64,000 nt of DNA from Bilabrum cf. latius (taxonomy: Eukaryota), in contig OZ237766.1 in NCBI GenBank assembly GCA_965178125.1, positions 1-64,000 on the forward strand. The letters are read 5' to 3'. Every line of letters starts with the position of its first letter. The stretch's first letter is position 1. Made by a program: the position numbers and the translations under genes. The notes under the pieces are model-generated. The model made no database searches. It saw only the letters and a program-made list of their open reading frames with translations, and was not told the DNA's origin. Positions 25,111 through 57,991 of this stretch are shown here, piece by piece.

Positions 25111-28100
25111 TCAGCCATTCCTCAGCCTACCGGCATCCTCGCCACCAGTTTGGCCGTCCGCGTCCTTTGCCGCCGAGGCCGAGGCTGCAAGGAATCCGTG
25201 CGCCCCGCTGCCCGATGGTTTGCGCTTGCTCCTCGCCCGCCCTCGCTTCCCACCTGGACCCCGCCTAGTTGAGCCGTCAGGCGCCTCCCCGCTTTGCCGG
25301 AGCAGGTCAGCAGCGCGCCCCAAAGCTGCGCTCTGCAGGGCCAGCCCAGGAGGGCCCCCACCCCCACCACGCCCATCCATCGCAACTGTCCCTGTTCCCG
25401 CCTGTGGCCTGCGGGCCTGTGGATAGGCTGCAAACTCAGCATCATCGTCATTTCTCCGCCCAAGACTCGCCCCCGCGCGCCCCTTGTCCATGCCAGCGGG
25501 AGGGGAAGGGGAGTGCCCTCTGGACGCGGACAGACCCTCCGCAAGGGGTAGGAAGGCAGGCACGTTGCTGGGCACTGCGGCATCGCCGACGCCCTGCAGC
25601 GGCCCTGACCGCCGCCCGTCCGGGGGCAGGCTGCCAAACCCGCCTGGGCCTGGACAAACGCCAGCACCAACACCAGCACCCGGCCCTGCCCCAGCCCCCA
25701 CAGGCAGCTCCCCCGGGTGCCTCCCGAGGCTGCCCCGCCTCTCCCTGCCGGGGCCGGCCACACCTCGCCCCCCAAGTCGCGCCACTGCTACTCGCGAGTG
25801 GTGCACCCCCCCACCAGCCCCCCCCTCGCTGCCCCCCGTCACCCCCGGGCCCACAGAGTCGCTCCCGCTCGTCTCACCCTCGGACCGGGGAGAGATCATG
25901 TGCCCCCCGGGAGGGAGGCCCTGGACCTGCTGCCTCGACTGCGCTTGCCCCAGGCCGTGCCCCTGTCCCTGTCCCTGTCCGCGCTGTTGTCCCCGCGCGG
26001 ATGGCCTCGAATCCGCAGAGCTTGCCCGACTTACGGCTCTGCTGCTGCTTGACTTGCGACTTCCCCTTGAGCCACGGCGCCTGGGTCGATGCTGTCGTCG
26101 CTGGGCCCCGCGAGAAGGCTATTGCAATTGCTGTTGCTGTCGCTGGTTGTGCGCGCGCCCCAGTGACCTGCTGCTCAAGTCGGCGAGATACCCCGCGCCG
26201 TCCACTGCAGTCGAGCCCTGCACGGGCATGCGCGCGAGAGGAGGCACCATCGGTCCTGCCAGCGGGTAGGCTTGCCTGCCTCCCGGCTAGAGCTAGCTGG
26301 CGACTGGGCCGGTGGTGGGAGCGGGGCCGCCTGCGAAATGACCGGCTGCCTGCTGCATGCCTGGCTGTCCTTGCGCATAGACCATGCTGCCGAACTGCTG
26401 GGAAGGCGCCTACACCCATACCACTGGTTGCTACCCTTGAACTTGCCCCTGTCCTTGCAACTGAGCTTGCCCTGAAGTCAGCATCGGAGCGTGCTGCATC
26501 ATCATGAGCTGCTACTGGTGCTGGGGGACACCCGTTGATGCACCACCAGACGACAATGGCATCGCTTCAGCGCTCCCGTGCGACACCATACCAGAGCTAA
26601 CGCCAATGCCTACATTCACGTTTAAGCCCATGCTCATGCTCACACCCAAAGGCTAGCTCATACTCATCCCCTACCCCGTTCCCATGGTCTGGCCCACCAC
26701 CAGACCCGTGGGTGGCTACACCACTGCCCCAGCCGGAAAGACGCCAGATGATGACCCGCTGCTCCCCACGGACACTGGCACCGCCAAAGCGCTTGCAGTA
26801 CCCGCTGGAGCCACGGAGCTTATGGCAGGGCCTTGCCACCCGCCCATGGGGACCTGGATAGGCATCATCGGGGCACTCGCATACTGAAATGGCTAGGAGG
26901 GCGGCGGCTGTGCGTGCGCGCCTACCGCTGCAGCTTGAGTCACGCCTGGGCTGGACTGGGCGAGCTGCGGTGCCAGCGCGGTAGCACCTGCACCGCTTGG
27001 CATCGGAGGTGGGTATGGGTACAGCTGAGCAGCCCCAGATCCGGTTCGCGAGCGAGAGCCACCCTGGTTGCCGGCCATGCCTCCACCCGTCTCTGTTGAC
27101 GCCGACCCTTTGGACTCCAGTACGCCCCCTCGCGCTCTGCTGGCATCCATTGAAAGACCGCCCTGGTCACCTGGGGACAGGGTTGAGGCGCCGGACTGCG
27201 CTGGTGTGAGCAGCAAGAAATCGCTGTCTCGCCTCCTCCTGTCAGATCCACTGCTGGGAGAATCTGGTTGCTTGTGGAGGGGTGCCTGCCGGCCAGGACT
27301 TGGGGGAGCTGACCCCAGTATCGCAGTCAGGTTCTTCGTCGAAGACTTTCGTGAGGCATTCGATGCGCCTAGAGAGTCAGTACCTGTCAATGGGACCCGC
27401 TTGGAATCTTTTGGCTGCTGCTCCTACTGCTACTGCTACCTTTGCTTTTGGGCCTACCGTTTAGTTTCTGTGTTCTTCTGATTCCTCGTGTTCTTCTTCT
27501 TTTTCTTCTTGGCCTGCTAGGATCGACCGCCTCCAGATGAACCGCCACGAGACGAGGCATCGTCGAATTGACCGCCACCCACTTGTGGTGCCCCTGCCCC
27601 GGACCCAGCCTGTCGTTGCCCTGCCATGGGTACCACGCCATGCATACCTACTGCAGCACTAGCTGCCCCCGGTGGAATGCCGGCATTCCAGACCGTAGCT
27701 GGAGCAGCACCTGTGCTGAAGCCCTGTGGGTGCGCGCCCATTGCGGGTTGGAGAGAGGCAGCGTACTGCATATGCTGGGCGATGCTCTGCTGGGCCTACT
27801 CCATGGACATGTACATAGAGCCTTCGTGCATGGCTTGCTCCGCCTCCTGCTCCGTTAGACTATCCGAGTGCATCTTGTTCGCCGCCACTCCTCTCGTGTA
27901 TGCCTCCCACTGTGCAAGGTACCCGTCCAGCATGCCCTGCATGGTCCTTGCAACGCCGTGAACCAGTTGCCACTCCTCTCGCAGCTGCGTATCCACATCG
28001 AGCACGGCTTGCAAAGGACCGTACATGCGGGCAGCATCGCTTTCTTCCGATCTCCGGCCAGGCCAGGCCTTGATTGCCTCCAGTGCCTCCCCACAGACTT

Positions 28101-31100
28101 GTTGGATCTGCGAAAAACGGTAGCAGGACCGCGCGATGTTTTGCTCTGGCACGGCATGCTGGGGGTCCAGGATAACGAGGGGGTCCAGCTCGATATGTGC
28201 GGGCAGCTTCAACCGCCCATTGCCTGACAGCAGCGGGGCGATCTGCACACGATGGGCCTCGGGCAAGTATGTTGCCCCTGCGTCCCAGGCCTGCGCAGAT
28301 GCGTCTCTGCGCAATTGCGGGGCTTCTGGAAGCCCGCTTTCTGCAGCACCCGCAGAGTGCTCTGAACCAGCCTTGGAAGCGCCTGTAGACCGCTTCTGCC
28401 CGAGGATAGTCTTGGACGCCTGCGAGGTCGGCGGGTCCCCATTCCGGGGTAGGATGATGCCCCGTGCTGGCCACAGTACCGTGATGTGGGGCTTGACCTG
28501 TCGCGCCACAAACCGCAGCAGTCGCACGAACAGGATGGCCATCGAGCTGCGGACCACCCGGTACGCACCATGGGCTGTTGCGGCAGGGGCCTTCTCCTTC
28601 TCCTCTGCGTCCTCGATGGGCCCAAGCAGCGGGACCCGTTCCATGGACGGGTGCCGCAGCTCTGGAGGCTACGACTGAAGGAAGGTGGACACGAGCAAGA
28701 GGAGGCCATACGAGGACAGACCGCCTGCATATGCGTCGTTGAGGCCGGATTTAGCCAGCAGCATCTTCATGGCCATCACGAGCGGGGCAAGGGCGCGCTC
28801 GTGCTGACCCATCATCATGGCCTGCTGCGTGGTGGCAAGCCCACGATGCGCGCTCGATGCCAGCGTCACATCGATCGAGACGATCCGGTGCCTTGCAGAG
28901 GCGGACGCAGAACCGCTCATCGGACTTGCCGCTGTGACCTGCGCAGGTACCCCGCTATCGCTGGTTGCAACTGTTTCACCAGTGGGCGGAGACGCATCCG
29001 CAGGAGATGCAAGCGCCGCCTGCTGGCGCCCAGCTGCCCCTGGGGACGAGGGCGCTCCCAGATCCACCTCCAGCTTGATGACTGGCACCTGGGCCGATGC
29101 AATCTCCTTGAGGTCTCGCACCCACCGCTGCTGCCGGAGGGCCTTGGCTACAAGGCTGAAGTGCCGCCGCTGAGGCAGCTCGATTGCGACGTCCACATCG
29201 CTCGCGGGGGTTGCGAGCTGGGTGATGTGCGAGCCGAAAATGTGCGTCACAGCATCTAGGCTCACAGTGCGCACCACGCTGAATACCATGCTGGCGGCCT
29301 ATCGCTCTGCCTGCCTCCTCTCCCCCTACCGGTGCCGCAGCGCCATGGTTAGCAACCTTATGTACGCGTCCAGCTGCATCTCCTTCGCCCGTCCTATCCC
29401 GCTGCTTATCTCCTGCAATGACAACTCAGCCGGGCCAATGAATCGCACTGCTGGCTGCAAGACGCCTTGGGCGGGAAGTTGCGCGAGATCCGCCTCTTGA
29501 TGACGATCAGCAGCACCCCCGGAGCCCTCTGTGTCTGCCTCCGACCTATCATGCGGATGCGCACTCGACTGTGACTTGGTCGTAGGCAGCGGCAGGATAG
29601 GCAGCCCACCCTGTGCTGACATCTCCACGCCGATGGGGAGGCGGTGACTCATGGCTTCGTCTGTTCCTACACCGATGCTAACGCTGTGTGTGACTGGCAG
29701 GGGCATGGCTTCGCCTGACCGCGGCACCGGTAGCGAGCCGTCACTAGGAAGTGGGGCAGCGGTGGGAAGCCCCTAGGATGACGCAGACAGGGCGGCTGCC
29801 GGCAGCTGTGGGCCCTGGAGCGCGCTTACAGATGCATCGACAGGGCCGGCTGAGGCACCACCCTCTTGCCCATCCCGTGCCTCTGCCGACTGCACCTGCC
29901 CTCCGCCATGGCCCCTCCACCCCTGCAGCATGCTGGCGCCACGCGTGCCACTCCACGCAGAAGCAGGCGCCGACATCTTGCGCCGAATAGCCTCATGGCT
30001 CCCATCTAGCCCAGCCAGAGGGACATGTTGTCCGCTGGTCTTGGGCACTTGCTACTCGGAGTCACCGCTGTTGGAGTGACTCGTGGTTGCAGCGGGATGA
30101 GTGGTTTCGGCGTCATCCGCACCACCCCGGTGCTTGGGCCCTCGGTTGGATGCCCCGCCGCCGAATGCAACAAATGGATTCTGGAGATAAGGGAACTCGG
30201 TGGTTGTCGCAGTGCGCGTCTGCGCTGAAGAGGCATGCCCCGAGGACTATTCTGCCTGTGGTCGCGAGGCGCTAGTTCCAATAGCACGCACGGACTCGCT
30301 GCCATCTTCCGTCGCGCCCTAGGACCCCAGTGCTTTGCCTGCGTCTGCTGCCAGCGTCTGCTTTCCACCGCCTTTGACTTTCTACTAGCTGGCCGCAGCT
30401 CCTTTTGACGATCCATCAGACGCTCCTTTCTTTGGCGAGTGCTTGCCCTTGCCCTTGCTTTTGCCCTTGCCCTGGTCGCCTCCCTGGTGTGCCTTGCCCT
30501 TGGATTCGGAAATCATCAAGTCCATTCGCAGCTCATTAGACTGGATCATGGCCTAAGTCAGGCGCTGAGCTACTGCCGACCGGCTGTGCGGCCCGTTGTC
30601 TGCACCTTGTGCGCCACCCTGGTCCCGCAGCACGGGCGTCAGCCACACGTGCATGGCCACATCGATGCCGCGCCAGTCCAGCGCGCAGTGAGGCCACGCC
30701 TGCACTTCTTCCGCCTCATCTGCCGCTCCTGGCATTCCCGACCGAAGCTCGTGCCCCTGCACGCCTTTCGGCCCCGAGCCCGGCGTGGAGCCCACTGTCT
30801 CGCGAGCTGCTCCGGAGCTTCCCGGCGCCATCTCATCGTCACCACCCGACTCCTCCCTGGGCTGCTAGCCAGGGGAGCCAGGCGAGCCAGGCAGGTGCTG
30901 CGACGGCTCTAGCACGAAGTCATCTGGGATCCGCTACAGGCGCCCGGTATGCTCCGATGCATCTCCTGCGGCCCCCAGATCCGAGCTGGAGCTCGCCATG
31001 GGCTGCAGGGAGGCGGACCGAGGTGCGGCGCGGAGCAGACTGACACCGTGAGGGGACAGTGGCGTGCCAGAGGGCAGCAAATCCGTGCTGCTGACCGCCG

Positions 31101-34100
31101 TGGCAGCCCCGCTCCGGCCCTCACTGGCGTCTCCGTGTGACATGCTGGCAGAGGAGGCAGGCAGTCCGCGAGCCAGTCGGCCGCTGCGCCGCTTCCGATT
31201 CTTGCGCCCCCTGGTTCTGTTCTTTGGCTTGCCCTTTCCCCCGGCACCCCCTTCTGGAACGATGCCCAGAATAGCCATGCGCTCCCCAATGCCCATCTGG
31301 TCCCACAGCTAAATGAATGGCAGCTTGGACCGCAGACCCACGTTCACCTGAGACGCATACCCCGGCGGCAGCTTGTCCAGCAGCAGCCCGTAGCGCTCCT
31401 TCATCTTCTGGATGCGCCGCCTGTCCGGCTCCTCCATGGGAGCCGCGGCGCAACTCGCATCCCCAGGTCCACTGTCTGCATCTGCCCCTTGCGAGCCGCC
31501 CCCCTCGGAGGCCCCCGTGCCCTCGGACACGACGACCCCCCTCGCGGTCGGCCCACCACCTTGCCCGCCGTGCAGCGGAGGCACGCACCCGCTGTCCTGC
31601 CCCTGTTCCTCACCGCCCCCAGCCCGCCGAGACCGCATCGCAAGGCGCCTGTGCTCATCGTCTAAGATCCGACCCAGGAGCCGCACTGCATTGGCTGCAT
31701 CCCGCACAACCCCCTGCTTGCCCTGCCAGTCCTGGCCCCCGCCCAAGCTAAGCCCCGCGCCAGGGGACTGCGCCCCAGCTTCGGCCGCCTCTTCTGCCTC
31801 GGCAGCCTACAGAACGGCCTCACTCCTTCGCAAGCGCGCCCTGGATACCTGAAGGGACTCGGTCCGTTGGACGGGCAGCGAGCGGTGGCTGGCGTTGCCC
31901 CCTTTCTGGCTGACAGCCGCGCCCCGCTGCGAGGAGGTCCCGTCCACGTCCAGCAAAGACTTTGAATCAACGGCGGGAAGGCCCGCACCCCCAGCTGGTC
32001 TCCGTCCCCCGTCCTTACCCCGAGCAGGTGGCCCCCTACCACCGTCATCCGACTTGGCCCTGGTGCGCGGGGCACCCCTGGGGAGCTGGGGCTGGGCTGA
32101 CTCAAAGGTCTCAACTGAGGCACACCCCATGCCCCCTGCCGCCTTCTCGTCCTCCTCGACCGCGGGCAGCTCTGAGGCTCCCAGCGCGAACAGGTTGCGG
32201 ACGTGCCTCCTGCTCAGCTTGCCCCTGATCATGGCCTACCAGGCCCAGAAATTGTGCCAAATGGACAGCTCCAGACGGTGCGCAATCACCGCCCCAAGAG
32301 TCAGCTAAGTGGGCCTGCTGTACCACCCACAGCACCCGAGCTCCCCCGGCAGCGAAGGCGCGGTGTACTTGATACCCTTAGACTACAGGGCGTCTGCCGA
32401 CCCCCTGCGCCCGCCACCCTTCTTGCCCTTTTTCTTTTTAGCGCTGCGCGGACCCGAAGCATGGGTGGCAATGCGCAGGCCTGTGGTCGGGTCTCGGGGT
32501 GGCTGCTCCGTGAGGAAGCACCTGTCCGTGACGGCCATGAGCAGCTCCAGGAGACGAGGTGGGTGCCGCAGCAGCTCGTGAGTCAGGCACAGTGTGTCAC
32601 CCTGCAGATTGCTGTCGCACAGACGGGCCCCTTCCACTAGGGACCGACTTGCTTTCACTCCCGGGCTCAGCTGCTCCCCAACCATCTCCTGCACGTGTCC
32701 ATGCGCGGCCTCTCTTGTCATGGCTTTTTCATCCTGCCCCGAACCCCCGGCAGAGGATGCCTGTGCATCGCTGCTGGAGGATCGCCGGATACCCTTGGGC
32801 CCCCCCTCGCCGAGCCTTCCTCCTGCTCGGTGAGAGGGTGGTAGGGGCGGGCCCAGCACCACATCGGCGGTTGTGCGCGGGGATGGCACAGGGGCTGCTT
32901 CGTCACAGCTAGCTCCCAGTCCTGAAGAGTCGACAGCTCCATTGCCTGTATCAGAGACGGTTGCAAGATCATCCGTGGTGCCCCCTACCCCATCTTCGGG
33001 CCCAGCCTCACTACTTGCCTCCCCCTTCTCCCCCATGGCACCGGCGACCCTCCTGCTCAGCGAGGCATGCACCTGCTGCAGGGCACCGTGCGCCCGCGCC
33101 AAGCTGCCTTCGTCTAGCTCCCCGCTGGCCACAGCCCCCGCCTTGTTCCCTGCCCTCCCCAGCATGGACGCAACGGACGCAGTGAGCCCCCCTATCCCGT
33201 CGATGACTCCGCCCAGCGACTGGATCGACACGAACTGCAGCCGGGAGGCAGCCTGCGCCCCAGTGCCAGGGTCAGACCCACGGCGCTAACGACGAGAGGA
33301 GCGCAGGCCGGCACTGCCTGGCCGGGGGCGGCGGCTCGTTGCAGGCCCCAGCAAGCTGTGCGGTGCCTTGATGCCGCCGGCCCTGCCCCCCTCGTCGTGG
33401 CTCTCGCCCACGGGGGTGAAGATGCCCTCCTTGCCCGCGCTCTACCGGGCCAGCGCCTGCAGGAAGTCGCACCAGGGCTTGTCCACCACGGTCAGCACAG
33501 CCTCTCTCTCGGGTGGGTCCAGCACGCTGGTGAACCACTACCACACCGCGTCTCGCAGTCGGGAGCCAGAGGACCGCACTCCGCCGCTGGCCCGCTGGCC
33601 TTCCTCGCGTGCAGTCGGAAGGGAATCGCGGGCCGACTGAGATGACGATGGCTGCATTGGCCTGGCGTGCAAGTGCGGCTGATTCTGGTCCTATTGCTGC
33701 TAGGAAGAGGACGAGGAAGACGACAGCGGGGCACTTGCGGTGGCTGCATCGGGGGCCGACTGGCTCCTACGTACCCCGCTCGAGTCCCGGGAGGCCTTAT
33801 CTAGCTTGGTTGTGTCTGCTGCACCACTGCTACCGCTCTCCCCGCACCCCTGCTCCTGTTCGAGGCCGTGGTCCTCTGCCTCATCCTGGCCCTAGCGACT
33901 GACCACCTGAGGCTACAGCTGCCCGGCCCCGGCCTCAGATCGACCTTTCTTCTCGGCCTAACTTGCAGTTTGCCTCTCACTGCCTCCCCTCTCCCGGTCC
34001 ATGGCCTCCAGCTGCTCCAAAGACAGCCCTCCTGCATGCTGGGAACCTGTGCGTTGGGGCGGCTGGCGCACTGCGTGCACCGGTGCACCCGACAAAAGCC

Positions 34101-34449
34101 GCCGGGAGCTAGACACGGCCGAGTGTGGTACAGCGCCAAGCAATGCAGCAGCCTATGAGTACGGCTCTTTCGGCAGCTGTGGGGGCACCACTGTGGCCCG
34201 TGGGCGGGCTGCAGCTTTAGAATCAGTCTAGCTGCTGCCAGCAGACCCGGGACCTGCCACTTCTGTCGCTCCATGCGTTCCAATTGTGGACGTTGATGGT
34301 CGTGAATTCGAACCCAACGAGCTCGAGCTCAAGTTCCCTGTAGCGGCTCGGCCTGACGGACCAATGCCTCTTCTGCGGCGTCGAGGCGCCGGTGTGGCTC
34401 GTGCTGGCGAGGGTCTGCTCTACTGCTCAGAACCACGTGATGATGACAT
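25111..34449 (-). CDS. Very large non-canonical poly(A) polymerase / terminal nucleotidyltransferase (Trf4/PAPD5 family, MEE44-like), ~3100 aa
   Basis: FGSHITQLATPASDVDV catalytic motif, LNDAYAGGLSSY, PAP-associated LVILDP..NIARSCYRFSQIQ; frame open from 34842 to 25111 with ~44 TAGs and no TAA/TGA. Start codon uncertain. Confidence 0.85.
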
Positions 34450-35017
34450 TAAATCAGTTACTGTAGCTTTATCTGTGTGCTAAGTATTGCGAATCCTTAA
34501 GCTGAAGAGGGGTAAACAACGTACAGCTTGCGAACTGCCAATTCCAAAGGAAACACTGTTCGTGGCGTGGTCCTGCGAACACAACGGGGCAACAGTCAGC
34601 ACCATACGGCTCATTGGCGCAACAGTGACAGCAAAAATTGCACGCACCAGGAGATTCGAAAGATGGCCTGGACTGGAGATGAGCCATTCCCACAGAGTGC
34701 GACCGTGTACCTAATGCATCGCAGAGGAGGCATCGTCTGACCGAGGCACAGCGCACGAAGACAGACAAACAACTATAACTACAAGTAGCAACTCACACAG
34801 GGTTGAAGGAGTGGGTATGTGGCGAAGCCACCGACGCAAGAGTTAGTGCGAATGGGTAGTGTGGCGCCGCGCAATGGTGCAGTGTGTGGTTCCGCTAATG
34901 CCAAGCTGGAGGCTTGGAGCAAGCGCCGGGAAATGGTCACGCACAGGTGATCCTAGTACGTTGATTCACATTCTATCCATACCGACAAGACCAGGCCACC
35001 CGTACATGTGAGCGTTA

Positions 35018-37855: not shown

Positions 37856-38309
37856 TCTTGCCCCCGTCTGCACAGAAGCAAGCGGGGCAGTCCGGGGTTG
37901 CACTTGGAGCGGAGACAGATCGCTTGTGTTTTTCGCCACCGAGACCGCTACAACCTGCGCATATTGCATTCGGCACGCATTAATCACAACTGGTCGCTAG
38001 TATAGACTGAAAAATCGCCCAGCAGAGCACCGAAGGCGAAGTAAAGGCCTCGCAAGCGACCGCATCGACAACGTGCCCTGCTGCTGCAGAAGACCCTTCT
38101 AGACGGAGAGTGTTGCAACGCAGGCCTTACCGATACAGTCAATGCTTTGAGGAGAAACTTAAGTATCGGCAGATTGCAACGTGTATGGTGAAAGCCAGTG
38201 GCCTGCCAGTGTGGGTGAGCTTAGGGATTGATCGCACTGCAGCGCGGTCACAACGCCAACGCCAGGCAGCATCTCTGCACAGTCCCGCAAAGTCAAACCC
38301 ATTAGCATG

Positions 38310-39515
38310 TTACACTCGCAGCAGCTGCACCTTCTTCCCGAACGCAATCACAACCCAGTCAGGCAGGTTGGAGGGCCACAAGAGGCTGTTGATCTCTGCC
38401 TCCGCCCCGTAGGCCAAGATGGGGTCCTCCACAGGGGTGGGCAGCTGGCTCAAGTCCCAGATGAGGGCCTGAGTGTCGTCTGCTCCCGAGCACAGGTGGC
38501 ATGCACTGTGCGGGGCCCACGCCACCGAGTTTACTGGGTGCGAGTGCGCCGCTAGCTCCGCCACAGGCATGGACGGCACTCGAATGTCCACGATCGTGAC
38601 CTTGCTCTGGTCCTGCGCGGCGCACGCGATATAGTTGGTGTCTATCTTGTTCCAAGCCAGCCTCAGCATGGGTGCCTGGTTGGGAGTCTCGTACATGATG
38701 GTCGAGTGGTCCAGCTTGCGCAGGTCGAACAGACGCAGGGAGCCATCCGCACCCACTGTGCCGAAGATGTTCTTGCTCCTGGAGAAGGCGATGTCATACA
38801 CTTCCTTGTCATGCGCGATGATCTGCGTACGGATGCGCTGCTGGTCCACGTCCCAGATGGTGCACGTGGTGTCGATGGACGAGGTGCCGATCAGGTTGGG
38901 GTCCTCCTCGTTCCAGTCGAAGCTCGTCAGCGGGGCGCAGTACTCGCTATTCTTGTTCGAGTTGAATAGACCTTCCTGCGCCACCGAAGACGTGGCCGTG
39001 GAGGAGCCCCCCGCGGGCGGCTCCCCGTCCCTGTAGCTCCACAGTCTCAGGTAGTCCCCTGTGGTGGCAAGGATGTCGCGCTTGGCTGCCAGCGCCTTGG
39101 GCGCCCACATGATCTTCGTCGCGGGGTACGGGTGGTCGAACTGGGCCTTTTCCTTAAACTCGGCCGTATCCTCGTCTATCTCCACTATCTTGATGCGGTT
39201 GCAGTATTCCTCGATGAAGCTGCCAAGGGCAAGCCGGAATGCGACGCCGGGGGCTGGCGCGTTGCTCGATGACATGCCATACACTGTCCAAGGGGCCTCA
39301 TATGTATGTATTTCTTTCTTGTCAATACCTTTTTCAGATGCTGCGCCTGCTGTTTCTGTCCCTTCCTTCGCAGCAGAGCTGGACGACGACGAGGTTGCTT
39401 CCCCCCCTGCTGGTGCATCACCCGCACGACCTCTTGATGCAGCCGCAACTGATTCACCTTCCATTGGTACTGAGCTCGGCACCGCTGGTGGTCCACTACT
39501 TCCTGTGCTTGCCAT
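38310..39515 (-). CDS. DCAF7: WD40 protein of the DCAF7/WDR68/AN11 family
   Basis: FDHPYPATKIMW, CAPLTSFDWN, TSSIDTTCTIWD, IAHDKEVYDIAF; canonical C-terminus QLLRV followed by TAA. Confidence 0.96.
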   Translation of the reverse strand: MASTGSSGPPAVPSSVPMEGESVAAASRGRAGDAPAGGEATSSSSSSAAKEGTETAGAASEKGIDKKEIHTYEAPWTVYGMSSSNAPAPGVAFRLALGSFIEEYCNRIKIVEIDEDTAEFKEKAQFDHPYPATKIMWAPKALAAKRDILATTGDYLRLWSYRDGEPPAGGSSTATSSVAQEGLFNSNKNSEYCAPLTSFDWNEEDPNLIGTSSIDTTCTIWDVDQQRIRTQIIAHDKEVYDIAFSRSKNIFGTVGADGSLRLFDLRKLDHSTIMYETPNQAPMLRLAWNKIDTNYIACAAQDQSKVTIVDIRVPSMPVAELAAHSHPVNSVAWAPHSACHLCSGADDTQALIWDLSQLPTPVEDPILAYGAEAEINSLLWPSNLPDWVVIAFGKKVQLLRV

Positions 39516-39802
39516 GTTGGGTTCAATAATGCAAACAACTTATAGCAACTGATGGCAACAGATTGGAGTCGTTTCAAGCCCTAGACTGAGTACTCGACAA
39601 GTTTAAGTTTTTTTTCTATTCGATTTCTTGTACGCCTTGTACTGATATTTCGTGCTGCCCGAAGTTTGCTTGGCCGGTAGAATTGAAACGGCGATCGAGA
39701 AATAGCACTGTACAATTGAAATCGAACGTTCCAGATAGGTTCGGTCATATGATTCGATGACGTGGGAAAGAATTGAGCCATCTGCACCAAGGAAATTGCG
39801 GA

Positions 39803-40416
39803 ATGCGCCATGCTTGGCAAGTGTTTGAACAGCCGAAACGGGCTGGTAGAATTTTGACGGGAATCCTCATTGCTGGCTGGACTTTCAAATGGATAGTGTG
39901 GGATTTGGTAAGGGAGAGGCACTGCCTGCTGCGAAGCAATCTCGCCATCGTTTGTGGCTACGATATACCTGGTTCTTACTGTGATACTTTGGGGTTGTGT
40001 TTACTGTTGTTTGTCGTTGCGTGGTTCGAACTTCGTGTTGGGCACTGCTCGCTAGCTGCAACTGCTATTGTACTGGCTCATTTGTGCCGCAGGCTAGATC
40101 CGAATTCGCGGAACTTGAGTAGCGTCGAATGGAAAAGCTAGATGAAAGTTTTGCGCAGATGCAAGCCGGTAAGCGAAAGTGCACCCCGTCCTTGTTTGTC
40201 AGTGCCGCATCCTGGATCGAGCCTGAGAATGTTGAGAGATTTCTTTCCAAACACGCAGGAAATCGAGTGAATTGGAGGCTCGTGGAGGCTCGGGCGGATA
40301 GAGAAGAGAAGGTAGCCGCGGAGCTGTTGGGCCAGGGAATCCAGCTGATGCCCCTGGATGCAAGGGAAGCTGTGGACTAGGCTGCCGATCAGGATACACA
40401 CAGCGGCAGGAGCTGA
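39803..40416 (+). CDS. Small hypothetical single-pass membrane protein; intron 39908-40092
   Basis: A GTAAGG..CCGCAG intron joins a hydrophobic exon in frame with the ORF at 40129; two TAGs; stop TGA; no family recognised. Confidence 0.5.
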
Positions 40417-41240
40417 GCCATATACTGCCCATAGCTCTGCATGAACCACTCACTGGGTGGAGGGGGGGGGGGGGTTGTCATTCATTTTTGGAGCGACTGC
40501 CAGTGTAAGGCTGCGTGTGAGGCTCGGAGGCTCGGGTTGAGCACCGTTGTAGCTTAGAGTCCAGGCACCACTGGCGCGGCGCACGTGCTATGGTCTGCAA
40601 CTGCTTGGACCCCGCGTTGGGATGCATGGGTCGCCCTTACCCCCTCTTCGGGCGAGCATATGCGTGTCTTCAGGGCCATACAGGTGTCTCCGTGGCTGCG
40701 TGTTTGTGCCCATACAACGCGCCTGATCGGAGCAAGTGGCGGTACTGCACGCTGTTCGAGCGTTTCTAGCGGCTGCTACCAGCCTAGGATGCTGTAAATG
40801 ACGCGCGTGCATCGTCATGATTGATTGTGGATCGGAGCGGCCGCACTGGTTGTCGTCACAGTGATCCACCCTTTCGTGCGTCTCGCATTCTAGTCGTCTG
40901 ACTTGTACTTCACAGAGTGGCGGTGGGACGGCTGGTCCGATGCTCTCGGCTCGGATCATAGTTACGTGCACTTACAGTCGCTAGAGTGCCATATAACTGG
41001 AAGTGATGAGCAGGCCAGACAGAACCAGTGTGCGCGCAGACGTACTCGCTGGCAAGTCTTGGAATGAGAATCCTGATAAAGCGCATTAATCGTTGTGTAA
41101 ACAAGCTTCAAACGCTTAAAGCATTGCATTGGGGCAGTCGAGACGATAGTCGTACTACTGGCAGTGTTGCGTTCCGTCGCACGGGTCTTTCCTCACGAAC
41201 GCCGGCTCGACGTCATTTTCATTCTGGCGGATCTGCAAGC

Positions 41241-41859
41241 ATGGCCGCATCAGCTGATGGCTCAAGTACTTCTATCATCAAAGGCAAGCGTGTTGGGCAA
41301 GTAATTAAACTTAAACCGGAGAAGTACGATGAGTACAAGAAGCTGCACGCAAGCGTATGGCCGGACGTCTTGAAGAGGATCCACGACAGTAATATTCGTG
41401 ATTATACAATATACTACTCTCCAGGTCAGTATTTGTCATGCTCTTCTTCGTAATACCGCTTTTTCCAGTATTGCATAGAACATGCGATCTTCCAAGGCCG
41501 CCCCGACTCGATTCATCGCAGAAGTAGGATGCCTTTTCAGCCACTTCGTGTACGTCGGGGAAGATTGGGATAAGGATATGGCAGCCATTGCCGCGGACGA
41601 GAAAACTCGGGAATGGTGGGCTGTTTGCGATCCGTGGTGAGTGCAGGCAGAGTATCTCGAAGATTGAGTTTGCCATACCACCGCTGCGGTTTCCAGTCAA
41701 ACGAGTGGGACAGCACGTCACTGAAAGCTACAATAATCAACTTTGAGGTTTCGCAGCCAAGAAAGCGTCGCACCTGATGCCGCTAAAGGGTCGGCTGATT
41801 CGGACGCAACTGGCCGCCCCTGGTGGCAGGGCATGGAGGAGCTCTTCCACTCCGACTGA
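41241..41859 (+). CDS. L-rhamnose mutarotase (DUF718) family protein; introns 41425-41521 and 41637-41756
   Basis: KLKPEKYDEYKKLHASVWP..IRDYTIY / LFSHFVYVG..DMAAIAADEKTREWW / WWQGMEELFHSD then TGA. Confidence 0.9.
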
Positions 41860-42153
41860 TGAAGTGCGCGTCTGTTGATCACTGAGCCTATGCATGTTTT
41901 ACGATTTGGTGCGCCATTGTGGGTGCACGTGGTGCATGCTGTCTTGCTGGCAGGGGGCCAGTGGCAGTGGATGCAGGCCTTGCAGTTGGTGGCCCGCTGC
42001 TCAGGATTCCTAGAAGCCCACTACTTGTCAAGTATTGCACCCATCGTATGCTTACAACCACAATCGTAGTATCGAATCGGATCCACAGGCGGTCGGCCCC
42101 CGTGCCACCAGCAGAGTCGGTGTCAGGCACCCCCTCTGGAAGTACCTCGGCAC

Positions 42154-43065
42154 TCACTGGTACCTGCCTTGTCGGATCCAGACCTGTGATACCCATTTTT
42201 CCTCATCCGCCTCTTCTCCTGTGTGCAGAGCCAGCTTGTCCAGCTTGCCGTCGAGCGTGCACGGGAAAAACACCAGCGCCTTGCCCTTCTTGGGGAGTAC
42301 CCGCAAGTCCAGCTTGGGGAAGTACGTGCCGCCGCCAGATGCGGCATCTGTCAAATACACAAGCACAGTGCCGACTCTGTTCCCGCCCGTGAAGCAGCAT
42401 TCCCTTCCTGGGGCAGTGTTCAGATCGAAGGCGTCGAAGTGCGACTTGTAGAACTGGCCCTTGTAGTACCGACACACCTATGGGGGCTCTTGGTGCGTCG
42501 GCGGCTTCTTAGTAAGCTTTGCCACTTTATCACACAGCCATGATACGGATGCTTTGTTCAAGAAACAACTCTGGCTCGTGCGCGTTGGTGCAGAGCTCTT
42601 GCCCGCCGTCCCGTCCACCACGATACTTCGTTTTAGTCCAGGACCACCGACTGCTTTGAGCTCATCGCATTCATCCGATGTCAAGAAATTTTCAATAACG
42701 TAAACTGGCGGCTGGTCAGAGACTCGCTTGAGCCTGGGTGTCTCTGCGAGGGGTTTCTTGATGGACACGTAGCCACGAAGCTCAATGAGCTGCTGTGCAA
42801 GTCTCCGGTAGCGAGCAGTCTAAACCTTCTTGCTATGGCCCAACGCTAGAGAAATCGGGCTTTGATTCTGCATCAATGCATTCCATCGAGTTGTCGTGGC
42901 AAAGCAGGCACCAATCTCACTCGGGTCAAGCGGCAAATAGTTGTCTTCTCGTCTATCTTTCTCTTCAACAAAGACCGCATGGGGGGCTACCTGTATTTTA
43001 GGAGAATCTGTCGTCGCTGGAATCACATACGGATCCACAGAAGCCGAACTGGACACGGCGGCCAT
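42154..43065 (-). CDS. Prolyl 4-hydroxylase alpha-like 2OG-Fe(II) dioxygenase (~303 aa)
   Basis: IENFLTSDEC, RTS, EPP[TAG]VCRYYKGQFYKSHFD, TVLVYL..GGGTYFP, LH..KW; stop TGA. 5' structure uncertain. Confidence 0.92.
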
Positions 43066-43561
43066 GCCGAGCCGCACCGATTGCTTGGTTCTTAAAGACG
43101 CAGTTCTCCAAGCAGCACCGTTGTTCTAAGGGAGCAGACTTGAAATCCCAAGCAGGCGCGGCTTGCTAAGCAGAAACTGTCGCAGTATCCTGGTAGGAGC
43201 CAAGAGTTCGTTCAGCAAGGAAACTTTGTGTTCCGACAAACTATGAAGATGAATGCGTGGCTTGGTCTCAACCGCCTTGCACTGGCCAGGATGTACTGCA
43301 CGAGGCGGCCTGCTGCCTCAAGAGGTGGTGGCTCCACCGGATGGCACATTTACAATATCATCAATGCATTTGGATCGTGTTTGGCGCAGGGGGGGCTTGC
43401 TGGGTATATACCAGTATTTTATAACATCTCGTAACAATGGCTGCCTGTCCGTTCGGCGTTCGGAGCGAACTTCATCCATCCAACACGGTCGCACTAAACC
43501 ATCCATTTGGGCTGCCCTTTAAGCGTATTGCCATCCTTTCCGTTTATCAGGAGTAATTAAG

Positions 43562-46500
43562 ATGGGATGCGGAACTAGTACCCCCGTGGTGGATGCGTCA
43601 AATCAGAACGTCCAAGTGATGGCACACCGTTCGCAGTCGTAGTCGCACAAAGAATACGTGGCCATGCCAAATCAGGTCAGCGTTGCGAAATATTTGTTGT
43701 GAAGCCGAGATGGAGGTCAAGTTATCGCCACATTTAGTGGTGCCTTGCTTTCGCACCCAATTGGATCGCAGGCAGGAACCAACATTGAGGACCCAGACAC
43801 GGCCAAGTCCGGCGTTTTTTACCACGTGTCCGTTTCAATATGGATGGCAAAGGGTCTCATCGAGGCAGATTCTTTGGGAGGCTCTGATCCGTACGTAATC
43901 GCCGAGTGTCAGGGCGTGAAGCTGAGGACCGAAACGGTGCAGTCCAACACGTGAGCCGAGCCTGCAGGTTGGTAAATAGAATTCTGCTTGTTTGGAGGGT
44001 GTGCTCCAGGCATCCCATGGGGGCCTCTTCGTTGGCATTGTCTGCGTGCTGGCGTCACCTGATGGCCGTGTTCCGCTGCACCAGGGGATCCACTCAGCCT
44101 CACTGCCAGAGGCACCAACCGATCCACTCACGATACGATGCACAAATCCCAGATCGCCCCCCTCCTCCTCATTGCACTGCCCCGCAGCAATCCCGTGTTC
44201 AACGAGCGGTTCGACTTCATGCTCAAGTCCAAGCCCAGCTACATCACCTTCGCCCTCATGGACAGCGACCTGGCAACGAGCGACGACCCGCTGGGCCAGT
44301 GCTACATCGCCCTGGATGCATCCCATTGCAGCGAGCAGGGCCACCCCGTGCAGTGGCTGGATGTCAACAGCACCCCGGAGATGAAGCAGCAGGGCGTGGA
44401 GGCAACCGGCCAGCTACAGGTGCAGGCCAACTGCACGGAGGTCCGGGCCTCTGCCGAGGACGCCGAGACCCAGGCCCGCATGCGGCAGGTGCTCTCCCTC
44501 GGGGTGCACAGCCTCCTGCTCACCTCTGTGCAGTTCAAGCCCGAGCAGGCCGCCAAGGCCCTCCGGTGCGCCCGCGGAGGAGAGCTGCTCCTAGTGTTCA
44601 TCGTGCAATTCGGGCAACACACGGTCCGCTCCCCAGCCATCCCCGTGGACCAGGCGCTGGTTGAGATAGGGACACCCATCCCCATCCACAAGCAGGCCAG
44701 GTTCTGGGTACTGGCAGGCCAGGAGAATTACGTGGCTCGCGTGTACATCTACGCAGACACCAACCGCAAGGCAGGGGCGGACCCTGATCTGGAGCTGCTG
44801 TCCATCGCCAACGTGCCCACCAAGCGGCTGCTGGAGGGCGTGACGGCGGACCGGGCCTCCAAGAAGAAATCGATCGATGAGGGGGCAGAGGACAAACCAG
44901 CGGCAGGCAAGGGCAAGGGCAAGGGCAAGGGCGGCAAGATTGCGGAGAGTGCCACCCAGCACATGAGCGTGGGCTTCCTCGCCGCTGCACTCAGCGACGA
45001 GGACGGAGATGGGGCACTGGGAGACAACCAGCTGCGGGCGGCTCTCATCGCGCGCCCCAAGCTGCACGTCCAGGGGCCGGGGCAAGCGCTGCGCCGGGAG
45101 CAGACGCAGGCGGCCCAGCTGCGGAAGGCGCACACCTAGGAACGGAAGGCCTTGAGGAGGCAGGCGGCCACTCGCCACGTGCTGCCCGAGGGCACGGACG
45201 AGAGTGCCAAGAGTGCCCAGGGCGAGGCGGATCTGCGTGGCACCGTGGTGGCAGGGGGCAAGGGGACGTTTAGCAAGGTGCTGGGCGAGCAGGAGGTGGC
45301 GCCTGCCCTGCGAGACGAGCTGCTGGGTGTCAAGATGGTGCAGGGGGGCGTGGACGAGAAGATACAGGCAGGCGCAGGGGCCAGCGGAGCGGGAGGGGCT
45401 GCATCGGGGGCAGGGGTGGACAGGGACGTGGGCAGCGGCGGCGTGCACACGCTGATCCGGCCCTCCGCAAAGGACGCTGCGGCAGCGATGGCGATCGTGG
45501 GTGTGCGCGGCGTGTTCAGCAGCAAGGTGGATCTGGAGCGCGTGTTTTTCTCCCGTCTGCTGGAGCGGTTCGACGGAGACAAGGACGGCAGGCTGGAGAA
45601 GGAGGAGATCCTCATGGGGCTCTCTGCGCTGAGTCACGGGGACATCAACAAGGGGCTGGGCATGGACGACAAGGGCATCGAGGAGCTGTTCGACCGGCTG
45701 GACGCAGACGGCAGCGGGGCTCTCGAGGAGTCCGAGCTGCTTCGGTTCCTGCGGTCTGCCGAGTTCTAGTCGTCTCGGATGGCCGCCACGATGATGGCCT
45801 ATGTCTTGGACGGGCAGGGGGGCGTGCAGGAGATGATGACCGGCTTCAAGGACCCTGATGCCCGCAGGGTGGGGCAGCTGCAGGCGGTGCGCGGGGGCGG
45901 CAAGATCCTTGCGGGCGCCGAGGAGCTGGACACGGTGGGGGAGCTGTACGGGATGGAGCGCAGGACGGGAATGGTGGTCAAGGAACACATCCCGGGGTAC
46001 GTGCGCATGGCCCTCAACATGCTGTACAAGGCGGGTGACCTGGCCAAGCTGAGTGGGGTGCGGGCCGCGCTCTCCCAGTTCTCCGCCCACGAGGGGGCCG
46101 AGAAGAACGAGCCCTCGAGCGTAGATGGGATTGCAGACTTCATCGCGCAGTTCGGAATCGACGAGAGGGAGATGCAGTTGCCGGTGGAAGCGTTCGGGTC
46201 CTTCAACGAATTCTTCTACCGCAAGCTGAAGAAGGAGGCGAGGCCCATCGCTGCTCCAGAGGACGACTCTGTGCTGGTCTCGCCCGCGGACTGCAGGCTC
46301 AACGTGTTCAACACCATCACGGACGCCACTCGGCTCTGGATCAAGGGCAAGCAGTTCAGCGTGGACCAGCTCTTCGGCACGGGTGCAGACGAGGTCAAGC
46401 GCAAGTACGCGCCCAGGTTCCAGGGCGGCTCGCTGGTCATCGCGCGCCTGGCCCCGCAGGACTACCACCGGTGGCACTTCCCCGTGAGCGGGACGCTGTC

Positions 46501-46957
46501 GCCGCGCATGCCCGTGGATGGTTGCCTGTACACGGTGAATCCAATCGCGATCAAGAAGGAGCTTGACGTGTACACGGAGAACAAGCGGCTGCTGCACTTC
46601 GTGGACACGGAGGACTTCGGGACCGTGGGGATGGTGGCTGTGGGGGCCACTGTGGTTGGCTCGATCCACATCACGGTGGAGGACGGGTCCAAGGTGCGCA
46701 AGGGGGACGAGCACGGGTACTTTGCTTTCGGGGGGAGCACCGTGCTGCTGCTGTTCGAGCCGGGGAGGGTGCGCTTTGACGCCGACCTGCTTGAGAACTC
46801 GTATGAGCGCGGTCTGGAGACCATCGTCAAGGTGGGAGACAGGATCGGGCAGGCGGTGCCTCCGGGGGTCGCAGATGGGGGCAGGGAGGCGGAGGGAGCC
46901 GCGGCAGGAGGCGCAGCGGCGGCGGCTGCTGCTGGTGGGGAGGAGGAGGGGACCTGA
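43562..46957 (+). CDS. PSD2: Type II phosphatidylserine decarboxylase (MGC N-terminus, C2 domain, EF-hands, PSD domain); introns 43676-43771 and 43951-44187
   Basis: C2 motifs SDPYV..NPVFNE; EF-hands DGDKDGRLEKEE and DADGSGALEESE; FNEFFYRKLK, SPADCR, RLAPQDYHRWH, FGGST; TAGs at 43640, 45137 and 45767. Confidence 0.93.
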
Positions 46958-47063
46958 TTTATGCGGTGCATTGCACGCACCCTTATTTGAGATGTGCCCA
47001 TCAAGAGACGATTGCTGCCCTGCCATGGATACGGTCGCCGAACCCAGATCACTTGATCCACAC

Positions 47064-48443: not shown

Positions 48444-48674
48444 GGTCGGGTGGATACTCTAGTCCCGTGACCGACCACTGGCAGATTGCTCTTGCCGCGC
48501 TCTTCTGCGCAGCTTCCTCGCTTCCCGTCTCTACTTTCTGGCATCGCAATCCATTCGCTCAGGTATACACAGCCCTTGATCTCAGATGAGCCTCGAGCGA
48601 GGAGTTGCTCTTCGTTGAACGTTCGTTTGCGGGAGCGAACCTAATCGAGCCGGCTCGCCCGACCTCCAATCAGC

Positions 48675-51614: not shown

Positions 51615-51861
51615 AAGGGCAAGTCAAGTATTAACTTTGTATCGTTGATTCGGTCCACGTGCGACACGATGCTCCGAAGCTAGCATGGCTGCGACCGCGT
51701 GCCGATGGCTACTGCAGTTGCGACGATCATCCACTGGCAATGGCCACAGCCAACGGACCCAACTGCAACTACTGTCAGTTTCGGTTGTTGCCGAATACAG
51801 AGGCCTTAATAGCCAGTAGTTCATATTAAAATAACGTTATTCTGCACGATCCCTGGATTTA

Positions 51862-54777: not shown

Positions 54778-54938
54778 AACGGTGGTTGCGCAGCGATTCA
54801 ACGTGGTAGCGAACGAACAAACGAACGAACGAACGAACTGGTGGCGATGAACCTTCGTTTTGAGCACTGCTGAGGTTCGCTCTGCAGTTGACGCCTGCCA
54901 TCATCGTGTGACGCTCCATATATTTTCGGCTCGTGAAC

Positions 54939-56286: not shown

Positions 56287-56387
56287 ACCAGACCGTGATT
56301 TCTCTTGTCCTTGCAGTACATTGTACTGATTGAAGGTGGTCGAAAACTTAGCGTGTTAATACCCATCGCTTCATCCGCTCTCGCCCC

Positions 56388-57877: not shown

Positions 57878-57991
57878 GGAAGCCACCGTAAATATTACTG
57901 CAGAATCTGGGTATTTTTTAAATTGTGACGAACGTTCGCTTTGCTCACCGAAGGGGGAATGTCGTGGAAACCTCTCAGTGCTGGACCCGAT

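What the first reader, a model, noticed from the sequence alone, without database searches (positions are those of the whole stretch)
42440..42500. TAG occupies the conserved Gln of the prolyl 4-hydroxylase E-x-x-Q-V-x-R-Y motif
The minus strand reads HQEPP[TAG]VCRYYKGQFYKSHFD (TAG at 42478-42480). P4H-family enzymes have ExLQVxxYxxGQxYxxHxD here. The spacing is exact, and the HxD..H metal triad lies downstream of the TAG. This is the best single-site evidence that the inserted residue is Gln rather than Leu, Glu or Tyr.
Basis: partly seen in the sequence, partly recalled or inferred. Interest (0 to 1): 0.85.

Follow-up and report, generated by a model that had tools for sequence, protein, structure and literature searches.

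The report
In-frame TAG read as glutamine
A normally "stop" codon (TAG) sits at an almost invariant glutamine position inside an expressed, spliced prolyl 4-hydroxylase gene of a GC-rich protist, and together with close relatives it shows that this organism reads TAG as glutamine while still stopping at TAA and TGA.

Summary
On the minus strand, TAG (42480-42478) lies in frame between E-P-P and V-C-R-Y-Y-K-G-Q-F-Y-K-S-H-F-D of a prolyl 4-hydroxylase gene.

- **Column:** among the closest homologs it is Q in 183 of 191 rows. None is L, E or Y.
- **Orthologs:** a metagenome ortholog (L001, 89% amino-acid identity in exon 2) has CAG at this site. It has TAG where the window has CAG, at a second conserved Gln, S-Q-V-W. 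Two further window TAGs in a 3243-codon ORF pair with Q in a 91% identical ortholog.
- **Transcripts:** spliced contigs from three runs remove a 177-nt intron (42744-42920). They run unbroken and unchanged across the TAG, so it is neither a splice acceptor nor edited.
- **Window-wide:** ORFs of 3243, 1887 and 1223 codons open only if TAG is sense. The 16 complete frames end in TGA (13) or TAA (3).

The interpretation (TAG = Gln) is supported. The code type, UAG-only to Gln, is already known in Iotanema and some ciliates. The lineage looks new: the closest named homologs are from Cafeteria. No tRNA(CUA), eRF1 or peptide evidence was available.

The parts
42478..42480 (-). In-frame TAG codon at the conserved Gln of the E-x-x-Q-V-x-R-Y motif. 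It is codon 137 of the spliced 244-codon CDS.
   Evidence: Column is Q in 183/191 rows. CAG in ortholog L001. Q in relatives P0032, P0182 and P0185. Unchanged in transcript contigs.
42921..43065 (-). P4H exon 1, starting at ATG 43065-43063.
   Evidence: First in-frame ATG of the frame. Homologs begin at the equivalent place. X8 contig covers 42921-43185.
42744..42920 (-). Spliceosomal intron, 177 nt, GTGAGA...CTCGCAG. It is in frame, has no TAA or TGA, and contains one TAG (42822-42820).
   Evidence: Joint 42743/42921 skipping 177 nt, ends CT..AC on the + strand, in one contig each of X5, X6 and X8. The segment is absent from homologs and poorly conserved, with a TGA in frame, in L001. Boundary sequences.
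42157..42743 (-). P4H exon 2. It holds the whole catalytic domain, including the TAG, the H-x-D, the distal His and the Lys of E-E-K-W.
   Evidence: dN/dS against L001 is about 0.03 overall and 0.034 downstream of the TAG.
42433..42441 (-). H-F-D, the metal-binding H-x-D, downstream of the TAG.
   Evidence: Aligned to the H-x-D of solved P4Hs. Codons CAC TTC GAC. Column H in 188/190 rows.
42223..42225 (-). Distal metal-binding His (L-A-L-H-T-G).
   Evidence: Aligned to the His of solved P4Hs. Codon CAC.
42184..42186 (-). CAG (Gln of S-Q-V-W). The ortholog L001 has TAG here.
   Evidence: Column is Q in 138 of 167 rows with a residue.
42154..42156 (-). TGA stop of the P4H gene. About 126 nt of 3' UTR follow, up to a poly(A) site near 42028.
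   Evidence: Relatives end at the same residue. Loose end of 24 T before 42028 in X5.
25114..34842 (-). 3243-codon ORF (nucleotidyltransferase-like, PF22600) with 46 in-frame TAGs. The TAGs at 29328-29326 and 29301-29299 pair with Q in a 91% identical ortholog.
38313..39515 (-). DCAF7/WDR68-like WD40 gene with no TAG. It ends in TAA directly after the conserved C-terminus ...Q-L-L-R-V.
   Evidence: This shows TAA still acts as a terminator.

Best explanation
The window is nuclear DNA of a GC-rich, intron-poor eukaryote in which UAG has been reassigned from stop to glutamine. UAA and UGA still terminate. The TAG at 42480-42478 is an ordinary Gln codon inside an intact, transcribed and spliced prolyl 4-hydroxylase gene. 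It arose recently by a C-to-T change from CAG, which closer relatives still carry at this site.

Shown here:
- TAG is in frame at an almost invariant Gln column.
- It is retained in the mature transcript.
- Orthologs exchange TAG and CAG reciprocally at conserved Gln sites.
- Long ORFs across the window need TAG as a sense codon.

Inferred, not shown: decoding by a dedicated tRNA-Gln with anticodon CUA, which reads UAG but not UAA, together with an eRF1 that has lost UAG recognition. This is the mechanism proposed for the other UAG-only codes.
For: 1. **Column.** Q in 183/191 rows, no L, E or Y. With a +1 pseudocount this gives about 184:1 for Q over E, L or Y, 92:1 over K and 61:1 over S. Rows are related, so these are upper bounds.
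2. **Orthologs.** L001 has CAG at the site, and TAG where the window has CAG in S-Q-V-W. Relatives P0032 (93% identity), P0182 and P0185 have Q. Window TAGs at 29328-29326 and 29301-29299 pair with Q in P0311, which is 91% identical. P0311 stops just before a window CAG. All 4 TAG/residue pairs in alignments of at least 89% identity are Q.
3. **Transcripts.** Contigs of X5, X6 and X8 carry canonical GT..AG joints: the 177-nt P4H intron and eight others. X5 also has a poly(T) loose end. X6 and X8 contigs cross the TAG in one piece with 0 other letters. No differing letters were reported in any of the 4 runs, from 3 studies.
4. **Selection.** Exon 2 against L001 is 174/195 amino acids identical. 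dN is 0.083 and dS is saturated, giving dN/dS about 0.03. Downstream of the TAG it is 0.034.
5. **Window-wide ORFs.** The longest ORFs rise from 874, 698 and 696 codons to 3243, 1887 and 1223 when TAG is sense. There are 122 TAG, 539 CAG and 173 CAA in 15,519 codons of 17 frames that I chose by length or Pfam match. All 16 complete frames end in TGA (13) or TAA (3). The DCAF7-like gene ends in TAA at its conserved C-terminus.
6. **Sequence context.** Residues within 3 positions of a TAG are enriched for Q 1.76-fold, 58 of 716. TAGs are interspersed in Q-runs of the 3243-codon ORF.
Against: - Six TAG pairs in poorly conserved alignments (51-79% identity) are not Q: GAG, GAA, AGA, TCG, AAG and ACG, that is E, E, R, S, K and T. 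By substitution-matrix score these six alone favour E (10) and K (8) over Q (5). Only with the four high-identity pairs does Q lead, 33 against 18 for E.
- The neighbour-profile likelihood does not separate Q from M or from the background.
- Making TGA sense also lengthens random frames in this GC-rich DNA: the sum of ORFs of at least 300 codons is 36,940 against 31,444 for TAG sense. Total ORF length alone is therefore weak evidence. The argument rests on the few very long frames.
- The 17 frames are stop-to-stop and may include introns and UTRs, as one P4H TAG shows, so the count of 122 coding TAGs is an upper bound.
- No tRNA was found in the window, no whole genome is held and no peptide data exist.
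- The runs are labelled RNA only as a guess, and the tool marks X5 as 'probably DNA'. That they are cDNA is my inference from the joints and the poly(T) end.
- The wider P4H family is not invariant at this position. Bacillus has H.
Confidence: 0.86

Rival explanations
1. TAG is a sense codon here but encodes another amino acid, most plausibly Glu or Lys. Leu, Ser and Tyr occur in other lineages.
For: Six TAG pairs in poorly conserved proteins are E, E, R, S, K and T. Scored alone they favour E (10) or K (8) over Q (5).
Against: The column has 0 E, L or Y and 1 K in 191 rows. All 4 pairs in alignments of at least 89% identity are Q, including a reciprocal exchange. The combined score is Q 33, E 18, K 12. 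E, K and R are the common replacements of Q, and GAG, AAG and TCG are single-base neighbours of TAG.
Confidence: 0.05
2. TAG has a dual meaning: sense inside genes, but also a context-dependent terminator near 3' ends, as in Condylostoma and karyorelict ciliates.
For: Nothing here excludes it. My ORFs were defined with TAG as sense, so a TAG terminator would go unseen.
Against: The two genes whose C-termini are fixed by homology end in TAA (DCAF7-like) and TGA (P4H), not TAG. All 16 complete frames reach a TGA or TAA.
Confidence: 0.06
3. The TAG is a genuine stop. The P4H is a recent pseudogene, or makes a truncated protein lacking the metal triad, perhaps with low-level readthrough.
For: Close relatives carry CAR at this site, so the TAG is young. 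Purifying selection measured against L001 cannot exclude a very recent nonsense mutation.
Against: TAG must be read through in many other frames of the same window, with 46 in one 3243-codon ORF. The relative L001 carries TAG at another conserved Gln of the same gene. The mRNA is present, spliced and polyadenylated in three runs. The rest of the frame and all catalytic residues are intact.
Confidence: 0.02
4. The TAG is removed or changed before translation, either as a splice acceptor or donor at CCATAG|GTGTGT or by RNA editing to CAG, or it is an assembly error.
For: The local sequence resembles both an acceptor (TAG) and a donor (GTGTGT).
Against: Contigs carrying the true intron joint cross the TAG without a joint and with 0 other letters. 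No differing letters were found in 4 runs from 3 studies. The residues directly flanking the TAG on both sides align to homologs.
Confidence: 0.01

Closest known systems
Nuclear code of Iotanema spirale (Fornicata): UAG = Gln, with UAA and UGA as stops (PMC5304391; abstract and passages read)
   Same: Only UAG is reassigned, and to glutamine. UAA is kept as a terminator. The inference rests on TAG at conserved Gln positions.
   Different: It is an unrelated lineage: an anaerobic metamonad, against a GC-rich organism whose closest named homologs are from Cafeteria. For Iotanema an eRF1 change (T32G in the GTS motif) was described. eRF1 and tRNAs could not be examined here.
UAG-to-Gln reassignment in phyllopharyngean ciliates and Protocruzia tuzeti (PMC11687900; two passages read)
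   Same: Same codon, same amino acid, UAA not reassigned.
   Different: These are ciliates with AT-rich macronuclear genomes. The present genome is about 61% G+C, has TTAGGG-type arrays and long Ala/Gly/Ser-rich proteins.
UAR = Gln codes (NCBI table 6 type: many ciliates, hexamitid diplomonads, ulvophycean green algae; PMC2984419 abstract in the listing, PMC5304391 abstract)
   Same: Stop-to-Gln reassignment. TAG appears as a synonym of CAG/CAA.
   Different: In those codes UAA is reassigned too. Here TAA terminates at least the DCAF7-like gene at its conserved end and 3 of the 16 complete frames.
[quoted passage not shown]
   Same: UAG-only reassignment with UAA retained.
   Different: A different amino acid. 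L occurs in 0 of 191 and S in 2 of 191 rows at the P4H column, and ortholog pairs give Q.
Prolyl 4-hydroxylases with solved structures: Chlamydomonas P4H-1 (2jig, 3gze), Bacillus anthracis P4H (3itq, 5hv0), human C-P4H alpha-2 catalytic domain (7zsc)
   Same: Same domain. The H-x-D...H triad and the Lys of E-K-W align without gaps around the site. Chlamydomonas has Q at the TAG column.
   Different: A short single-domain protein, 244 residues after splicing. Bacillus has H at the column. Substrate and activity are untested.

Membership tests
Prolyl 4-hydroxylase / 2OG-Fe(II) oxygenase (PF13640) | Significant match to the family profile and to solved P4Hs. | tested here: met
   PF13640 at 40 bits (cut-off 27), E 8e-10. 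3itq at E 3.9e-26 and 2jig at about 1e-20.
Prolyl 4-hydroxylase / 2OG-Fe(II) oxygenase (PF13640) | H-x-D...H iron triad and the 2-oxoglutarate-binding Lys in register. | tested here: met
   H-F-D (42441-42433), the His of L-A-L-H (42225-42223) and the K of E-E-K-W align to the corresponding residues of solved P4Hs. That these residues bind iron and 2OG is established knowledge of the family, not tested here.
Prolyl 4-hydroxylase / 2OG-Fe(II) oxygenase (PF13640) | Hydroxylation of peptidyl proline. | not testable with these tools
   Needs an enzyme assay.
UAG-only to Gln nuclear genetic code (Iotanema / NCBI table 15 type) | In-frame TAG is widespread in coding sequence. | tested here: met
   122 TAG in 15,519 codons of 17 chosen frames, an upper bound because introns and UTRs are not all removed. 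ORFs of 3243, 1887 and 1223 codons need TAG as sense.
UAG-only to Gln nuclear genetic code (Iotanema / NCBI table 15 type) | TAG falls at conserved Gln positions. | tested here: met
   P4H column is Q in 183/191 rows. 4 of 4 pairs in orthologs of at least 89% identity are Q. 0 of 6 pairs in alignments of 51-79% identity are Q.
UAG-only to Gln nuclear genetic code (Iotanema / NCBI table 15 type) | UAA and UGA remain terminators. | tested here: met
   13 TGA and 3 TAA end the 16 complete frames. TAA follows the conserved C-terminus of the DCAF7-like gene. TGA follows the conserved end of the P4H in the window and in L001.
UAG-only to Gln nuclear genetic code (Iotanema / NCBI table 15 type) | UAG is no longer used as a terminator. 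| tested here: inconclusive
   Only two C-termini are fixed by homology, and neither is TAG. The other frames were defined with TAG as sense.
UAG-only to Gln nuclear genetic code (Iotanema / NCBI table 15 type) | A cognate tRNA with anticodon CUA and tRNA-Gln identity. | not testable with these tools
   No tRNA gene in the window. No whole genome is held.
UAG-only to Gln nuclear genetic code (Iotanema / NCBI table 15 type) | eRF1 altered in its stop-codon recognition motifs. | not testable with these tools
   No eRF1 gene was seen in the window (Pfam scans of the long frames). No genome is held.
UAG-only to Gln nuclear genetic code (Iotanema / NCBI table 15 type) | Gln found at UAG positions in peptides. 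| not testable with these tools
   Needs mass spectrometry.

The most novel reading that the evidence does not exclude
This is a so far undescribed UAG-only to Gln nuclear code in a clade of GC-rich, intron-poor protists related to bicosoecid stramenopiles. The closest named homologs of two genes are from Cafeteria. At least two species, diverged to synonymous saturation, share the code (the window organism and the L001 organism). It would be the first variant nuclear code in stramenopiles and a further independent case of UAG and UAA being uncoupled.
Probability: 0.4. Interest if true: 0.75.

Novelty: new member of a known kind. Interest (0 to 1): 0.62.

Why it matters
**For understanding code evolution.** Nuclear codes in which UAG and UAA have different meanings are rare. 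The two papers I read list Iotanema, a rhizarian, Scotinosphaera and a few ciliates. They bear on how eRF1 and tRNA changes can separate the two codons. A further, apparently unrelated lineage with close relatives available in public data would help in three ways:
- Reciprocal TAG/CAG exchange is visible between species.
- It gives a tractable comparison for dating the change.
- It offers a place to look for the tRNA and eRF1 changes.

**For annotation.** Any annotation of this genome or of related metagenome contigs with the standard code cuts genes into pieces. The relatives' P4H and nucleotidyltransferase proteins in public collections end exactly at such sites. This one P4H codon is a compact diagnostic site for the code.

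Tried and rejected
- **Whole genome.** Asked for, to look for tRNA(CUA) and eRF1. None is held.
- **tRNA scan.** ARAGORN on the window found 0 genes.
- **Earlier scan notes.** Searched by place, by words and by sequence. Nothing found.
- **Neighbour-profile likelihood for the identity of TAG.** Does not discriminate: M -1958.4, Q -1958.8, background -1960.9.
- **Search for short fragments of relatives of the 3243-codon ORF.** Returned only 2 proteins among 8000 scored candidates. One of them (P0312) covers no TAG.
- **Sequencing runs.** No listed holder is on record as RNA. The RNA nature of X5, X6 and X8 is inferred from spliced joints only. Depths were not used to rank expression.
- **Odd joints.** Long 'skips' with 20-21 letters on the shorter side (for example 45293/49967 and 50510/53114, in X7, X5 and X8) were set aside as repeat or foreign-contig artefacts.
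- **L002 and L003.** These are 33% identical P4H-like loci and were not used.
- **Splice reading of CCATAG|GTGTGT.** Considered and rejected.
- **Pseudogene reading.** Considered and rejected. See the rival explanations.
- **Literature.** Three full-text searches found no report of a variant nuclear code in stramenopiles or bicosoecids. This is absence in that library only. Supplementary files were not consulted.
- **Not done.** Structure prediction and complex prediction were not run. Sequence-level homology to solved P4Hs was already decisive.

Full report
**1. The observation**

On the minus strand the window reads ...K-P-P-T-H-Q-E-P-P-TAG-V-C-R-Y-Y-K-G-Q-F-Y-K-S-H-F-D..., with the TAG at 42480-42478.

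The frame is a prolyl 4-hydroxylase:
- It matches Pfam PF13640 at 40 bits, against a cut-off of 27.
- It matches the solved P4Hs of Bacillus anthracis (E 3.9e-26), Chlamydomonas (about 1e-20) and human C-P4H alpha-2 (2.3e-13).

The alignments are gap-free around the site. They place the H-x-D (42441-42433), the distal His (42225-42223) and the Lys of E-E-K-W downstream of the TAG. Chlamydomonas has E-G-L-Q-V-L-H-Y at the motif. Bacillus has H instead of Q.

**2. Gene structure**

The closest homologs lack about 59 residues that the uninterrupted frame contains. The DNA there starts GTGAGA and ends CTCGCAG.

Laying contigs of four public runs on 38000-57999 showed a joint 42743/42921 that skips exactly 177 nt, with GT..AG ends on the minus strand. 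It appears in one contig each of X5, X6 and X8. X7 contigs run through the intron, which is the DNA form.

The same runs show eight further canonical joints in neighbouring genes and a 24-T loose end at 42028. I take that loose end to be the poly(A) tail of the minus-strand P4H message. I therefore treat X5, X6 and X8 as cDNA-derived, although the tool labels them only 'RNA?' and marks X5 'probably DNA'.

The gene is:
- ATG 43065-43063
- exon 1, 43065-42921
- intron, 42920-42744
- exon 2, 42743-42157
- TGA, 42156-42154
- poly(A) site near 42028

It encodes 244 residues, and the TAG is codon 137.

Of the three in-frame TAGs of the stop-to-stop frame, one is upstream of the ATG and one lies in the intron. 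Only the reported one is coding.

**3. Is the TAG kept in the message?**

X6 contig 9 covers 42017-42743 in one piece. X8 contig 22 covers 42098-42743 and then 42921-43185. Both have 0 differing letters and 0 gaps. The tool lists no differing letters in any of the four runs, which come from three studies.

The TAG is therefore not a splice acceptor or donor, not edited, and not an assembly error.

**4. Is the column Gln?**

I pooled the 30 nearest proteins and the 150 best representatives of a search of 1.84 billion proteins (9275 hits at E no greater than 1e-3). I aligned them to the spliced protein.

Of the 200 domain rows, 191 have a residue at the site: Q 183, M 2, S 2, N 2, I 1, K 1. No row has L, E or Y. 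Only E134 (189/190), Y141 (190/191) and H150 (188/190) are more conserved nearby.

With a +1 pseudocount this one site favours Q over E, L or Y by about 184:1, over K by 92:1 and over S by 61:1. Because the rows are related, these are upper bounds.

**5. Orthologs**

- The representative search found P0032, 93% identical, with Q at the site. Members of its cluster (P0182, P0185, closer still) also have Q.
- A JGI metagenome contig, L001, carries the ortholog.
- At the DNA level L001 has CCC CAG GTG where the window has CCA TAG GTG. It has TCG TAG GTG where the window has TCA CAG GTC, in S-Q-V-W. That second column is Q in 138 of 167 rows.
- Exon 2 is 174/195 amino acids identical between the two, with dN 0.083 and saturated dS. 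dN/dS is about 0.03 overall and 0.034 for the part downstream of the TAG.
- In the 3243-codon ORF, the TAGs at 29328-29326 and 29301-29299 pair with Q in P0311, which is 91% identical. P0311 ends just before a window CAG, as expected if the relative has TAG there. That last point is inferred, because I could not see its DNA.

So all 4 TAG/residue pairs in alignments of at least 89% identity are Q, in both directions. The L001 organism shares the code.

**6. Results that do not point to Q**

In less conserved alignments TAG pairs with other residues:
- The L001 ortholog of the 1887-codon ORF, 273/506 identical.
- The paralog pair 408-1991 and 3761-5326, 372/507 identical.
- The first PSD exon, 49/62 identical.

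The pairs are GAG, GAA, AGA, TCG, AAG and ACG, plus one TAG/TAG. That is 0 of 6 Q.

Scored alone with BLOSUM62 they favour E (10) or K (8) over Q (5). With the four high-identity pairs the totals are Q 33, E 18 and K 12. E, K and R are the usual replacements of Q, and GAG, AAG and TCG are single-base neighbours of TAG. I therefore read these pairs as ordinary substitutions at unconstrained sites. They are still the main reason my confidence is not higher.

**7. The window as a whole**

The sequence is about 61% G+C.

Under the standard code the longest ORFs are 874, 698 and 696 codons. With TAG as sense they are 3243, 1887, 1223 and 1219. With TAA as sense they are unchanged at the top. With TGA as sense the summed ORF length also rises, to 36,940 against 31,444 for TAG, but the longest ORF is only 1062. 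This is typical of GC-rich DNA. The signal therefore lies in the very long frames, not in the totals.

Pfam identifies these genes:
- a nucleotidyltransferase-like giant protein
- a DCAF7-like WD40 protein
- a C2/EF-hand phosphatidylserine decarboxylase
- an IMPACT-like protein
- RNase H2A
- a GOST-type membrane protein

In 17 frames that I chose by length or Pfam match there are 122 TAG, 539 CAG and 173 CAA in 15,519 codons. This is an upper bound for coding TAGs, because introns and UTRs are not all removed.

The 16 complete frames end in TGA (13) or TAA (3). The DCAF7-like gene ends in TAA right after its conserved ...Q-L-L-R-V, as does its 91% identical ortholog protein.

Residues near TAG are enriched for Q 1.76-fold. 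TAGs are scattered within Q-runs of the giant ORF. Almost all TAGs lie outside Pfam-matched stretches.

**8. Mechanism**

*Shown:* UAG is present in the mature message and must be translated for the conserved catalytic half of the enzyme to be made. Its meaning is Gln by comparative evidence.

*Inferred from what is known of other UAG-only codes:* a tRNA with anticodon CUA can read UAG without reading UAA. eRF1 usually carries changes in its N-domain motifs, for example T32G in Iotanema (PMC5304391, passages read).

No tRNA gene is in the window and no genome is held, so this step is untested.

**9. Comparison and novelty**

UAG-only to Gln is a known code type. It occurs in Iotanema spirale, Protocruzia tuzeti and some phyllopharyngean ciliates. 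UAG-only to Leu and to Ser also exist (PMC11687900 passages; PMC5304391 abstract and passages).

The closest named homologs of both the P4H and the DCAF7-like protein are from Cafeteria roenbergensis, at 62% each. Other stramenopiles follow. This is a weak placement based on two genes.

Three full-text searches found no report of a variant nuclear code in stramenopiles.

I therefore class the finding as a new member of a known kind. The site-level claim is solid. Lineage-level novelty is probable but unproven, because I cannot name the organism, and its assembly and transcriptomes are already public.

**10. Verdict**

Observation confirmed, interpretation supported. Confidence is 0.86 that this TAG is translated as glutamine under a genome-wide UAG-to-Gln reassignment with UAA and UGA retained as stops.

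Noticed in passing
window 2273-9765: Three long interstitial telomere-type arrays (CCCTAA)n lie at 3087-3584 (83 copies), 7249-7728 (80 copies) and 8592-9435 (141 copies). Each sits next to arrays of a 155-bp satellite (2273-3024, 5689-7188, 7778-8597). A 37-bp repeat follows at 9435-9765. This is either subtelomere-like structure or an assembly artefact. On the minus strand these arrays create runs of 'in-frame TAG' (82, 79 and 140) that have nothing to do with coding.
   Followed up: partly
window 408-1991 and 3761-5326 (+): Two paralogous ORFs of unknown function, 372/507 identical, flank the first telomere-type array. They share one TAG at the same position (G-F-T-x-TAG-Q-R) and differ at two others, TAG against TCG and TAG against AAG. 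No Pfam match.
   Followed up: partly
window 42744-42920 (-): The P4H intron is 177 nt, a multiple of three. It has no TAA or TGA in frame and contains a TAG. Read from sequence alone it passes for coding sequence and inflates counts of 'in-frame TAG'.
   Followed up: yes
window 39907-40091, 40168-40257, 41422-41518, 41636-41755, 43673-43768, 43951-44187, 55041-55254, 57649-57734: Further short GT..AG introns (86-237 nt) are seen as joints in the contigs of X5, X6 and X8. The genome is intron-poor but not intron-less. The phosphatidylserine decarboxylase gene has at least two introns near its 5' end.
   Followed up: partly
window about 42017-42041: Two convergent transcripts meet here. The + strand gene 40482-42031 (two introns) and the minus-strand P4H message, with its poly(A) site near 42028, abut or overlap by a few bases at their 3' ends.
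   Followed up: no
window 25114-34842 (-): This is a 3243-codon ORF with a nucleotidyltransferase palm domain (PF22600) and 46 TAGs. Many lie in Q-rich low-complexity tracts, for example Q-K-Q-R-TAG-Q-TAG-Q-TAG-E-Q-Q. Almost all TAGs in the window lie outside Pfam-matched stretches.
   Followed up: partly
window 38313-39515 (-): The DCAF7/WDR68-like gene has no TAG in 401 codons. Its 91% identical ortholog protein P0191, from a 22-kb JGI contig, is also uninterrupted. TAG may be avoided in highly conserved or highly expressed genes.
   Followed up: no
L001 1-3771: Gene order differs between the relatives. In L001 the P4H is followed by the ortholog of the window's 12616-18276 ORF, about 24 kb away in the window. 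The PSD first exon stays next to the P4H on the other side. L001 itself has in-frame TAGs in all three genes.
   Followed up: partly
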